In this document: in pieces, positions 3,655-4,458 of the stretch
Position numbering within the stretch: position 1 is the stretch's first letter
Layout of the letters: every line of letters begins with the position of its first letter
IMG/VR virus record: IMGVR_UViG_2859810971_000003
DNA length: 14,073 nucleotides
DNA from: a virus
Lineage: Duplodnaviria > Heunggongvirae > Uroviricota > Caudoviricetes
Direction: 5' to 3' (one strand)
Notes under the pieces: model-generated
What the model was told of the DNA's origin: nothing
Seen by the model: the letters and a program-made list of their open reading frames with translations, nothing else
The model's database searches: none
Program-made: the position numbers and the translations under genes

Positions 3655-4385
3655 TCCTCCGGCATAGCCGGAGGTTTTTCAAATGCGCCTGTAAGGCTCT
3701 GTTACCAGCCGCGCCCTAACAGGCGCATACGATCTGACATTTGCATTCAACTTCGTTACTTACGGCCCGTAAACGGGCTGCCCGGATATGGAATCGATAA
3801 CTGCTCCCCATTTTATCCTCTTCAAGCTGGTGCTTTATGTAGTCCTGTATCTTCGCCGTGTTCTTACCCACCGTATCGACATAGTACCCTCGGCACCAGA
3901 ACTCCCTGTTTCTGTATTTGAATTTCAAATCCCCAAACTGCTCGTAAAGCATCAGACTGCTTTTCCCTTTCAGATATCCCATAAAGCCGGATACGCTCAT
4001 TTTGGGTGGGATTTCCACAAGCATATGGATATGATCTGCGCAGCACTCTGCTTCCAGAATCCGTACGCTTTTCCACTCACACAGCTTTCTCAAAATACTG
4101 CCTATCGCCCTACGCTTCTCTCCGTAAAACGCCAGTCTTCGGTATTTCGGCGCAAAAACTATGTGATATTTACAGTTCCAGCGGGTGTGCGCTAAGCTCT
4201 TTTCGTCCCCCATTGGGACCCCCTTTTGATTTCTTGTTTGACACTTGCAGTTGCCAGACCGCAAGGTGTTTTAACAAATCAAAAGGGGTTTTAATAACTG
4301 GCTCAAAGCTGAAAGCTTTCCGGAACCCCCAGCCTAGCTGGGGGTTTTCTGTGCACAATAAAAAACCCGCTCAGCGGCGGGTTGT
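3655..4385 (-). mobile_element. IS200 (IS200/IS605 family) insertion; boundaries approximate to about 20 bp
   Basis: tnpA flanked by the expected structures: an end-proximal terminator hairpin (CCCGCCGCTGAGCGGG then T6, plus 4359..4383), a second hairpin (4321..4347), a long-range stem that sequesters the tnpA ribosome-binding site, and a hairpin near the other end (3657..3677). Confidence 0.7.
3756..4213 (-). CDS. tnpA: IS200 transposase TnpA (Y1 HUH transposase), C-terminal frameshift in this copy
   Basis: MGDEKSLAHTRWNCKYHIVFAPKYRR...GYYVDTVGKNTAKIQDYIKHQLEEDKMG matches the recalled IS200 TnpA. The canonical end EQLSIPYPGSPFTGRK is in the -1 frame after a C4 run (3806..3809). The span is 458 nt, one short of the 459 expected. 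Confidence 0.85.
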
Positions 4386-4430
4386 AGAAACTCTTCTAAC
4401 GCCAGGCATAAAACGCCCATCATTATGACG

Positions 4431-4458
4431 AATTTACCACAGATTCCGGAAAAATCAA
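4431..4458 (-). promoter_or_regulatory. Candidate late promoter (pR'-like) just downstream of Q: TTGATT-N16-TAAATT
   Basis: Sigma70-like hexamers on the minus strand with 16-nt spacing, about 10 to 35 nt past the Q stop, in the position lambdoid phages place pR'. The match is weak. Confidence 0.25.

What the first reader, a model, noticed from the sequence alone, without database searches (positions are those of the whole stretch)
3655..4458. IS200 inserted between Q and the late genes, with its terminator hairpin facing late transcription
The IS200 copy sits just downstream of the Q stop and the candidate pR'-like promoter, and upstream of the tRNAs and lysis genes. Its end-proximal hairpin plus T6 tract (plus 4359..4383) lies in the path of minus-strand late transcription. 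A long-range stem pairs ACCCCTTTTGATTT with AAATCAAAAGGGGGT across the tnpA ribosome-binding site, which fits known IS200 translational repression. The hairpin could instead be the phage's own tR', and only comparison with an IS-free homolog can tell.
Basis: partly seen in the sequence, partly recalled or inferred. Interest (0 to 1): 0.5.

Follow-up and report, generated by a model that had tools for sequence, protein, structure and literature searches.

The report
IS200 landed behind phage terminator tR'

Summary
The IS200 copy is real, but its limits are window 3647-4356 (710 bp, ±2 nt, tnpA on the minus strand), not 3655-4458. Comparison with IS-free copies of the same interval (E. coli MS6198, phage mEp460_ev081) shows that the hairpin plus T6 at 4359-4383 is phage backbone. 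It is the intrinsic terminator tR', about 60 nt downstream of a lambda-like pR' that starts 5 nt after the Q stop.

IS200's own left-end terminator hairpin is at 4324-4346. It also faces late transcription, so two terminators lie in tandem. The long-range stem over the tnpA ribosome-binding site (4220-4288) is the published IS200 translational repressor (Rfam RF01405, 146 bits).

This copy has a 1-nt deletion that frameshifts TnpA after residue 136, leaving the HUH motif and Y125 intact.

The position is not accidental. Of 120 IS200-type left-end flanks from diverse bacteria, 102 are a hairpin plus T-tract ending exactly at IS nt 1. The same tR' nucleotide carries a different IS200 lineage in CFT073 and C6. 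Two lambdoid phage genomes carry IS200 just after tR2.

All components are already described. The prophage is a remnant, so a functional effect here is unlikely.

The parts
4464..5285 (-). Q antiterminator gene (273 aa, Q-lambda family with an inserted Zn-finger-like segment); stop codon TAA at 4466-4464
   Evidence: Pfam PF03589 6.3e-55; PDB 7UBM Q-lambda 3.5e-40 and 4MO1; annotated 'antitermination protein' in homologs
4416..4458 (-). Candidate late promoter pR': -35 TTGATT 4458-4453, 16-nt spacer, TGg-extended -10 TAAATT 4436-4431, predicted +1 near 4424, -10-like pause element AATGATGGG 4424-4416
   Evidence: Side-by-side with lambda pR' (TTGACT-17-TAAATT-tgactc-AACGATGGG) read from NC_001416. 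It scores 8/12 against consensus, so the generic scan did not flag it. Identical in the IS-free phage mEp460_ev081. Function is inferred.
4357..4383 (-). Phage backbone intrinsic terminator tR': stem AACCCGC/GCGGGTT 4383-4364, loop CGCTGA, then T-tract; read as TTTTTTATT at 4365-4357. The IS200 insertion point lies between 4357 and 4356.
   Evidence: Terminator scan; fold -11.2 kcal/mol. Present in IS-free MS6198 and in phage mEp460_ev081, with loop-only variation.
3647..4356 (-). IS200 element, 710 bp (intact relatives 711 bp); left end at 4356, right end at 3647; boundaries good to ±2 nt
   Evidence: Empty-site comparisons; 99.9% identical to IS200 copies at unrelated loci; consensus of 118 left-end and 26 right-end junctions
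4324..4346 (-). IS200 left-end inverted repeat AACCCCCAGC-TAG-GCTGGGGGTT. This is the published bidirectional Rho-independent terminator (IS nt 11-33 here, 12-34 in the literature).
   Evidence: Rfam RF01405 positions 1-23; fold -18.7 kcal/mol on the sense strand, -20.7 on the plus strand, where T4 follows; PMC4513863 and PMC5435999 (about 85% termination of impinging transcripts)
4220..4288 (-). [quoted passage not shown]
   Evidence: Fold; Rfam structure; PMC4513863 (nt 69-138; 20-fold repression in PMC5435999)
4205..4294 (+). [quoted passage not shown]
   Evidence: Inferred by transferring the coordinates published in PMC4513863 onto this copy. Not tested here.
3716..4213 (-). tnpA, frameshifted. 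ATG at 4213. A 1-nt deletion in the C-run 3806-3809 changes the frame after residue 136, giving 165 aa instead of 152 (the normal stop would be near 3756-3758). HUH (H61-H63) and Y125 are retained.
   Evidence: Alignment and translation against intact 711-bp copies L124/L125. PDB homologs align only to about residue 133. This exact protein occurs on one public contig only.
3656..3674 (-). IS200 right-end hairpin CCTCCGGC-TAT-GCCGGAGG, followed by the conserved 9-nt tail ATATTTATT that ends the element at 3647
3620..3648 (-). Promoter-like site TTGCGA-17-TATTAT, 10 nt upstream of tRNA-Ile. Its -35 spans the IS right-end junction and is rebuilt by the IS end (TT + GCGA).
   Evidence: Consensus scan only, 9/12; the same sequence is present in the empty site
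3535..3610 (-). tRNA with anticodon CAU. ARAGORN calls it Met; RefSeq homologs call it tRNA-Ile (lysidine type).
3357..3433 (-). tRNA-Arg (UCU)

Best explanation
A 710-bp IS200 copy inserted into the late-control region of a Q-lambda-type (Qin/mEp460-like) prophage. The insertion point is the last T of the T-tract of the phage's own terminator tR' (minus strand ...CCCGCCGCTGAGCGGGTTTTTTATT^G...). The tnpA gene points the same way as late transcription.

Reading the minus strand, the order is:
1. Q stop codon.
2. Lambda-like pR' with a -10-like pause element.
3. tR' (phage).
4. 10 nt of IS left end.
5. IS200's own bidirectional terminator hairpin.
6. The SD-sequestering stem-loop, with art200 antisense to it.
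7. tnpA.
8. The right-end hairpin.
9. The tRNA promoter and tRNAs.

How it most likely works (inferred, not shown):
- Without Q, pR' transcripts stop at tR'. Any leak meets the IS200 left-end terminator. tnpA is therefore doubly insulated and in addition translationally silenced.
- With Q-modified, terminator-resistant RNA polymerase, both terminators would be read through. The IS would be co-transcribed without blocking downstream genes.

Why it is here (inferred from the junction data): IS200-type elements insert 3' of a hairpin plus T-run. That shape copies the element's own right end (hairpin plus ATATTTATT). Phage terminators such as tR' and tR2 are therefore recurrent landing sites.

In this genome the prophage is a truncated remnant and the TnpA C-terminus is frameshifted, so the arrangement is probably a relic without current function.
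For: Boundaries and ownership of the hairpin:
- The empty site in MS6198 is 99.2-99.4% identical over the 645-nt flanks, and phage mEp460_ev081 also lacks the IS. The match runs to 3652 from the left and to 4356 from the right. The tR' hairpin is present in both.

IS200 identity and internal structures:
-, with coordinates matching PMC4513863 and PMC5435999.

Lambda-type module:
- Q matches PDB Q-lambda. The pR' and pause element line up with lambda. The terminator is picked up by the scan.

Terminator targeting:
- 102 of 120 distinct left-end flanks carry a perfect-stem hairpin plus T-tract ending at IS nt 1. At random positions of the same loci the rate is 12% (3.9% for stems of 7 bp or more).
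- Positions -6 to -1 are T in 65-97% of flanks (lowest at -3, where A is the alternative). IS nt 1 is G in 80%.
- The right end is hairpin plus ATATTTATT.
- A tandem copy is inserted directly after another copy's right end (L107).

Recurrence:
- The same nucleotide is occupied in CFT073 and C6 by IS200C, which has 28-30 mismatches per 710 bp against this copy. This copy has 0 mismatches to copies at yddM-fdnI and hcxB.
- The yddM-fdnI site is also occupied by both lineages.
- IS200 lies exactly after lambda tR2 in phages Lambda_ev058 and PhiR63_2.

Family rule:
- Insertion 3' of a short specific sequence on single-stranded DNA (PMC2806898).
Against: - No transcription data. pR' is assigned by resemblance to lambda and scores only 8/12 against the sigma-70 consensus.
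- Read-through by Q-modified polymerase is extrapolated from lambda biology.
- Q itself may not be expressed here, because the prophage is cut off at 7703, upstream of hokD.
- The IS ends cannot be fixed to better than ±2 nt from sequence, because the target and the right end share TT/TTATT.
- Enrichment behind terminators could partly reflect selection rather than target recognition, which is the interpretation given in PMC13548323.
- The effect of the TnpA frameshift is unknown.
Confidence: 0.85

Rival explanations
1. One reading: the hairpin plus T6 at 4359-4383 is IS200's own end-proximal terminator.
For: It lies within 3 nt of the IS end and looks like a textbook terminator.
Against: It is present, with the same flanks, in IS-free E. 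coli MS6198 and phage mEp460_ev081. IS200 copies at other loci carry different hairpins at that position. The published IS200 terminator (nt 12-34) maps to 4324-4346 (PMC4513863).
Confidence: 0.02
2. The window, CFT073 and C6 share one ancestral insertion at tR'. The IS sequence was later replaced by gene conversion from other IS200 copies, so there were no independent hits.
For: The insertion point and orientation are identical in all three. Genomes hold up to 35 matching places that could act as conversion donors.
Against: - The window's flanks are slightly closer to IS-free alleles (99.2-99.4%) than to the occupied CFT073/C6 alleles (95-98.6% over the same 645-nt flanks).
- The same two-lineage pattern recurs at yddM-fdnI.
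- Only 5 of 4110 E. coli genomes with this region are occupied.
- The strong target preference makes repeated hits expected.
Confidence: 0.2
3. The position behind terminators reflects selection only: insertions survive where they are harmless and where outside transcription is blocked. The transposase does not recognise a hairpin plus T-run.
For: PMC13548323 reports the enrichment upstream of IS200/IS605 and interprets it as limiting transposase expression. Intergenic sites after terminators are neutral.
Against: - The register is fixed to the nucleotide (T-run ends at -1, G at +1), and the orientation is always the same.
- Only about 5% of random positions ending in TT have a stem of 7 bp or more.
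- The target resembles the element's right end, and there is a tandem insertion after a right end.
- The family is known to choose short sequence targets on single-stranded DNA (PMC2806898).
Confidence: 0.25
4. The IS200 insertion is polar. Its left-end and right-end hairpins stop late transcription and contributed to inactivating the prophage.
For: The left-end hairpin stops about 85% of ordinary impinging transcripts (PMC5435999). IS200 was discovered as a polar hisD mutation (PMC4513863).
Against: - Late transcription in lambdoid phages is carried by Q-modified, terminator-resistant polymerase that already has to pass tR' (established lambda biology).
- Two complete lambdoid phage genomes carry IS200 after tR2, upstream of nin and Q.
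- The loss of lysis genes here is explained by the IS3-family element at 1197.
Confidence: 0.1

Closest known systems
IS200 of Salmonella/E. coli (IS200/IS605 family, IS200 group; includes IS200C and Yersinia IS1541)
   Same: - Size 710 bp, a single Y1 HUH transposase gene, no terminal inverted repeats.
- Left-end bidirectional terminator hairpin, SD-sequestering stem-loop and right-end hairpin.
- 99.9% identical to annotated copies.
   Different: A 1-nt deletion frameshifts TnpA after residue 136 (165 aa against 152 aa). This exact protein is found on one public contig only.
IS200C insertion in the CFT073 and C6 prophages, between the antitermination protein and tRNA-Ile
   Same: Same nucleotide position, same orientation, same prophage type.
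   Different: A different IS200 lineage with 28-30 substitutions per 710 bp and an intact tnpA. The prophage there still has holin and lysozyme.
Lambda late control module Q - pR' - 6S RNA - tR'
   Same: - A Q-lambda-family protein.
- A promoter directly after Q with a TAAATT -10 and a -10-like pause element followed by GGG.
- An intrinsic terminator downstream.
   Different: The terminated leader is about 60-67 nt, against 194 nt in lambda. Q carries an inserted segment of about 70 aa with a CXXCXGXG-like motif. None of this was tested functionally here.
IS200 after lambda tR2 in phages Lambda_ev058 and PhiR63_2
   Same: IS200 is inserted right after the T-tract (..CCTTTTTATT^G) of a terminator that the phage overrides by antitermination, and it is co-oriented with phage transcription.
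   Different: The terminator is the N-dependent early terminator rather than the Q-dependent late one. Those records are complete phage genomes.
Group IIC introns (insert downstream of intrinsic terminators)
   Same: A mobile element that uses the terminator stem-loop plus T-run as a landing mark. This rests on my own knowledge; PMC7923331 surfaced in the search but I did not read it for this point.
   Different: A retroelement with a ribozyme and reverse-transcriptase mechanism. It has no relation to Y1 transposition.

Membership tests
IS200 (IS200/IS605 family) | Y1 HUH transposase (Pfam Y1_Tnp) with the HUH motif and catalytic Tyr | tested here: met
   PF01797 1.2e-36. HIH at residues 61-63 and Y125 are present (Y125F is the catalytic-dead mutant in PMC4513863). 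PDB Y1 transposases match at 2e-23.
IS200 (IS200/IS605 family) | About 707-711 bp, single gene, no terminal inverted repeats, no target-site duplication | tested here: met
   A 710-bp insertion relative to the empty site. The 7-bp overlap CAATAAA shrinks to 2 bp at the yddM-fdnI site, so it is target/right-end similarity and not a duplication.
IS200 (IS200/IS605 family) | Left-end terminator hairpin (nt 12-34) and SD-occluding stem-loop (nt 69-138) | tested here: met
   Rfam RF01405 146 bits over the full model; folds; coordinates from PMC4513863.
IS200 (IS200/IS605 family) | Subterminal right-end hairpin | tested here: met
   CCTCCGGC-TAT-GCCGGAGG at 3656-3674, conserved in the 26 right-end hairpin matches collected from the fetched loci.
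IS200 (IS200/IS605 family) | Intact transposase reading frame (autonomous copy) | tested here: not met
   A 1-nt deletion in the C-run 3806-3809 frameshifts after residue 136. The conserved core ends near residue 133, so loss of activity is not certain.
IS200 (IS200/IS605 family) | Transposition through single-stranded DNA, inserting 3' of a short target sequence | not testable with these tools
   The sequence pattern is consistent: TT(T/A)TT immediately 5' of the left end in 118 junctions. The mechanism is known for IS608 and ISDra2 (PMC2806898).
Lambda-type Q/pR'/tR' late antitermination module | Q antiterminator protein | tested here: met
   PF03589 6.3e-55; PDB 7UBM and 4MO1 Q-lambda.
Lambda-type Q/pR'/tR' late antitermination module | Promoter just downstream of Q with a sigma-70-dependent pause element in the initial transcribed region | tested here: inconclusive
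   There is a sequence match to lambda pR' (TAAATT -10; AATGATGGG against AACGATGGG). It scores only 8/12 against consensus and was not flagged by the scan. No transcript data.
Lambda-type Q/pR'/tR' late antitermination module | Intrinsic terminator between pR' and the late genes, belonging to the phage | tested here: met
   It is conserved in IS-free prophage and phage homologs.
Lambda-type Q/pR'/tR' late antitermination module | Q-dependent read-through of tR' and downstream terminators | not testable with these tools
   Needs reporter fusions or in vitro transcription.

The most novel reading that the evidence does not exclude
IS200-type transposases select targets by shape. An intrinsic-terminator hairpin plus T-run on single-stranded DNA mimics the element's own right end (hairpin plus ATATTTATT), and the element is integrated exactly at the end of the T-run. 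This would make the terminators that lambdoid phages override by antitermination (tR', tR2) preferred and tolerated landing pads. It would also couple sense transcription of the IS to N/Q antitermination during prophage induction. Published work (PMC13548323) reports the statistical enrichment but explains it by selection on transposase expression.
Probability: 0.5. Interest if true: 0.45.

Novelty: already known. Interest (0 to 1): 0.2.

Why it matters
The practical value is as a correction. The T6 hairpin is the phage's tR', so the Q-to-tRNA interval should be annotated as pR' - tR' - IS200 (with its own terminator) - tRNAs.

More generally, the case gives a clean, nucleotide-resolution example of IS200 landing at the end of a terminator T-tract. 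It also shows repeated, apparently independent hits at phage terminators. This bears on how Y1 transposases pick targets, and on why IS200 is so silent: it parks behind a host terminator and adds its own.

In this particular genome the prophage is a remnant, so no phenotype is expected.

Tried and rejected
- The MAFFT alignment of the window with the IS-free locus smeared the short sequence across the IS. I replaced it with exact-match extension from both flanks.
- The generic promoter scan did not report the pR' candidate. I compared it directly with lambda instead.
- Beuzon et al. 1999 (PMC148624), the primary paper on the IS200 hairpins, is not held. I used the summaries in PMC4513863 and PMC5435999.
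- Four literature searches for an explicit statement of the IS200/IS1541 target found only the 2026 enrichment report (PMC13548323) and family-level rules (PMC2806898).
- I considered a 7-bp target-site duplication (CAATAAA at both ends). I rejected it because the overlap is 2 bp at yddM-fdnI and 6 bp at lambda tR2, and it always equals the similarity between the T-run target and the right-end tail.
- I considered that E. coli W46 and Z1322HEC0003 (H6, H7) carry the same insertion. They do not: there IS200C sits behind other terminators of other prophage late regions.
- The source organism's name is not given by the tools. Only the accession CP026810.1 is returned.

Full report
**What is in the window**

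Genes on the minus strand between 7703 and 1197 form the late-control part of a Qin/mEp460-like lambdoid prophage. In order they are hokD, rem, a DUF968 protein (5669-6718), RusA (5300-5656) and a Q antiterminator (4464-5285). These are followed by tRNA(CAU) at 3535-3610, tRNA-Arg(UCU) at 3357-3433, an STnc100 RNA, iraM on the plus strand, and a holin gene cut off at 1197.

Q matches Pfam PF03589 (6.3e-55). It also matches the solved Q-lambda structures 7UBM and 4MO1 (3.5e-40 and 3e-27), with an inserted segment in the middle.

**Is there an IS200, and where does it end?**

The ORF at 3716-4264 (minus) is a Y1 transposase (PF01797, 1.2e-36). Rfam finds the IS200 5'UTR family RF01405 at 4346-4223 (minus) over the full model: 146 bits against a gathering score of 56.

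A megablast of 3300-4800 against 5,426 complete E. coli genomes shows that thousands carry the flanks joined directly. These matches cover 53% of the query and occupy 791 bp in place of the 1501-bp query, at up to 99.7% identity. Only five genomes have the IS at this place.

Exact-match extension against one empty site (MS6198, L001) runs from the left to window 3652 and from the right down to 4356. The two matches overlap by 7 bp (CAATAAA at 3646-3652 and 4356-4362). The insertion is therefore 710 bp.

A second empty/occupied pair at yddM-fdnI leaves only a 2-nt ambiguity. Lambda tR2 gives 6 nt. Across 118 left-end junctions the flank ends in TT and the element starts with G (80%) then T. Across 26 right ends the conserved sequence stops at hairpin + ATATTTATT.

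The consistent register is IS = 3647-4356, with the left end at 4356. The overlap is similarity between the target and the right-end tail, not a duplication. The finding's range 3655-4458 therefore starts 8 nt inside the right end and runs 102 nt past the left end.

**Whose hairpin is 4359-4383?**

On the minus strand it reads AACCCGC-CGCTGA-GCGGGTT followed by TTTTATTG. The terminator scan picks it up and it folds at -11.2 kcal/mol.

It is present, with the same flanks, in IS-free MS6198 and in the complete phage genome mEp460_ev081, where only the loop varies. IS200 copies at other loci have unrelated hairpins at this position.

It is therefore phage backbone.

**What is that hairpin?**

Five nucleotides after the Q stop codon lies TTGATT (4458-4453). 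A 16-nt spacer follows, ending in TGg, then TAAATT (4436-4431). Six nucleotides later comes AATGATGGG (4424-4416).

Lambda's pR', read from NC_001416, is TTGACT-17-TAAATT-tgactc-AACGATGGG. The -10 hexamer is the same, and so are the position and sequence type of the -10-like pause element followed by GGG.

From knowledge of lambda, this is where Q loads onto the paused polymerase. The first terminator downstream is tR'. Here the terminated leader would be about 60-67 nt.

This assignment rests on sequence resemblance. The promoter scores 8/12 against consensus and the generic scan did not list it.

**IS200's own structures**

The left-end inverted repeat AACCCCCAGC-TAG-GCTGGGGGTT lies at 4324-4346, which is IS nt 11-33. 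The literature gives nt 12-34 and describes a strong bidirectional Rho-independent terminator that stops about 85% of impinging transcripts (PMC4513863, PMC5435999). It folds at -18.7 kcal/mol on the tnpA-sense strand.

It sits 17 nt downstream of the tR' stem, so two terminators lie in tandem.

The long-range stem ACCCCUUUUGAUUU/AAAUCAAAAGGGGGU (4220-4288) encloses the SD sequence AAGGGGGU just before the ATG at 4213. The fold gives MFE -44.7 kcal/mol, z -4.3, with no shuffle as stable. The Rfam consensus structure shows the same pairs. This is the published stem-loop (nt 69-138) that blocks 30S binding. The antisense art200 would lie on the plus strand at about 4205-4294; that is a coordinate transfer from PMC4513863 and was not tested.

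**State of this copy**

The element has no substitutions relative to 711-bp copies at yddM-fdnI and hcxB in other E. coli. It lacks one nucleotide in the C-run 3806-3809.

TnpA is therefore frameshifted after residue 136, giving 165 aa instead of 152. The HUH motif and Y125 are kept. Solved homologs align only to about residue 133, and several end a few residues later, so activity may or may not be lost.

The exact 165-aa protein occurs on a single public contig, CP026810.1, 4.53 Mb.

**Why the IS is at this spot**

One scan of species-representative genomes for the left-end hairpin returned 120 distinct left-end flanks. They come from Yersinia, Serratia, Vibrio, Citrobacter, Phytobacter, and metagenome-assembled genomes labelled Bacillota, Elusimicrobia and Desulfovibrionaceae.

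In 102 of the 120, a perfect-stem GC-rich hairpin followed by a T-run ends exactly at IS nt 1. Most of the rest have imperfect hairpins, with MFE of -15 to -21 kcal/mol. The same detector fires at 12% of random positions in these loci, and at 3.9% for stems of 7 bp or more.

One locus (L107) has a second copy inserted directly after the right end of the first. The right end is itself a hairpin plus ATATTTATT.

The family is known to insert 3' of a short sequence on single-stranded DNA (PMC2806898). I infer that the hairpin plus T-run is the target, and that it resembles the element's right end.

A 2026 paper reports the enrichment of terminator-like sequences just upstream of IS200/IS605 elements. 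It explains the enrichment by selection for low transposase expression (PMC13548323). The association is therefore known. The single-nucleotide register argues for target choice, but this is not proven here.

**Recurrence at phage terminators**

CFT073 and C6 carry IS200C at the same nucleotide and in the same orientation. That IS differs from the window's at 28-30 of 710 positions. The 645-nt flanks differ by 1.4-5% from CFT073/C6 and by only 0.6-0.8% from the IS-free MS6198 allele.

The yddM-fdnI site is likewise occupied by both lineages. Independent insertion is the simpler reading, but gene conversion between IS copies is not excluded.

Two complete lambdoid phage genomes, Lambda_ev058 and PhiR63_2, carry IS200 between ren and ninB. 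Comparison with lambda shows that the insertion lies exactly after CAGGCCTGCTGGTAATCGCAGGCCTTTTTATT. From knowledge of lambda, that terminator is tR2.

**Likely function here**

Without Q, pR' transcripts should end at tR', and any leak should end at the IS200 left-end hairpin. With Q, terminator-resistant polymerase should pass both hairpins and the right-end hairpin. This is inference from lambda biology and from the apparent tolerance of IS200 after tR2.

In this genome the point is probably moot:
- Prophage homology ends at 7703, so there is no immunity or replication region and Q has no pR to drive it.
- Homology also ends at 1197, inside the holin gene, where an IS3-family element begins.
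- Further IS3 and IS1 transposase genes lie at 8614-10013.

**Verdict**

The feature is an ordinary, slightly damaged IS200 copy parked behind the phage's tR'. Every component is already described, and the same insertion site is annotated in CFT073.

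Noticed in passing
window 2473-2660 (-): Rfam STnc100 (RF02076), 109.9 bits, E 9e-24, in the prophage late region between iraM and the small DUF3927 gene. It ends in a hairpin plus U-run.
   Followed up: no
window 1-1196, 7761-10013: The prophage remnant is bracketed by IS elements. IS3-family orfA/orfB lie at 1-303 and 339-992 (+); the window's similarity to intact relatives stops at 1197, inside the holin gene. An IS3-family transposase lies at 8614-9432 (-) and an IS1 transposase at 9510-10013 (-). 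Such an IS load suggests a Shigella-like genome, but the tools give only the accession CP026810.1.
   Followed up: partly
window 11345-13622 (+): ydeP (acid-resistance oxidoreductase, 759 aa in the NCBIfam model) is split into 524-aa and 208-aa ORFs, so it is probably a pseudogene.
   Followed up: no
window 3620-3648 (-): A promoter-like site TTGCGA-17-TATTAT ends 10 nt before tRNA(CAU). Its -35 straddles the IS right-end junction and is preserved because the IS tail (..TTATT) replaces the terminator's T-run. The tRNAs may therefore keep their own promoter despite the insertion.
   Followed up: partly
L107 (genome-contig hit): Two IS200-type copies lie in direct tandem. The second is inserted immediately after the first copy's right end (..GGAGGATATTTATT|GTCTATGG..), which fits the idea that the right end resembles the preferred target.
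   Followed up: partly
L133 3001-3711; L134 3001-3711 (phages Lambda_ev058, PhiR63_2): IS200C-like copies are inserted exactly after the lambda tR2 terminator between ren and ninB, co-oriented with pR transcription, in complete lambdoid phage genome records.
   Followed up: yes
L124/L127 versus L126 (E. coli yddM-fdnI intergenic region): The terminator after fdnI is occupied at the same nucleotide by two IS200 lineages (711 bp and 712 bp) in different strains and is empty in most strains. This is a second site occupied by both lineages.
   Followed up: yes
window 3535-3610 (-): ARAGORN calls the CAU-anticodon tRNA 'Met', whereas RefSeq homologs annotate it as tRNA-Ile (lysidine-modified type). 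CFT073 has an extra tRNA-Arg copy between the two tRNAs that the window lacks.
   Followed up: no
window 4464-5285 (-): Q is 273 aa against 207 aa for Q-lambda. Residues 1-113 and 183-273 align to Q-lambda, and the inserted middle segment gives a sub-threshold DnaJ CXXCXGXG zinc-finger match (28.4 bits against a cut-off of 32.7).
   Followed up: no
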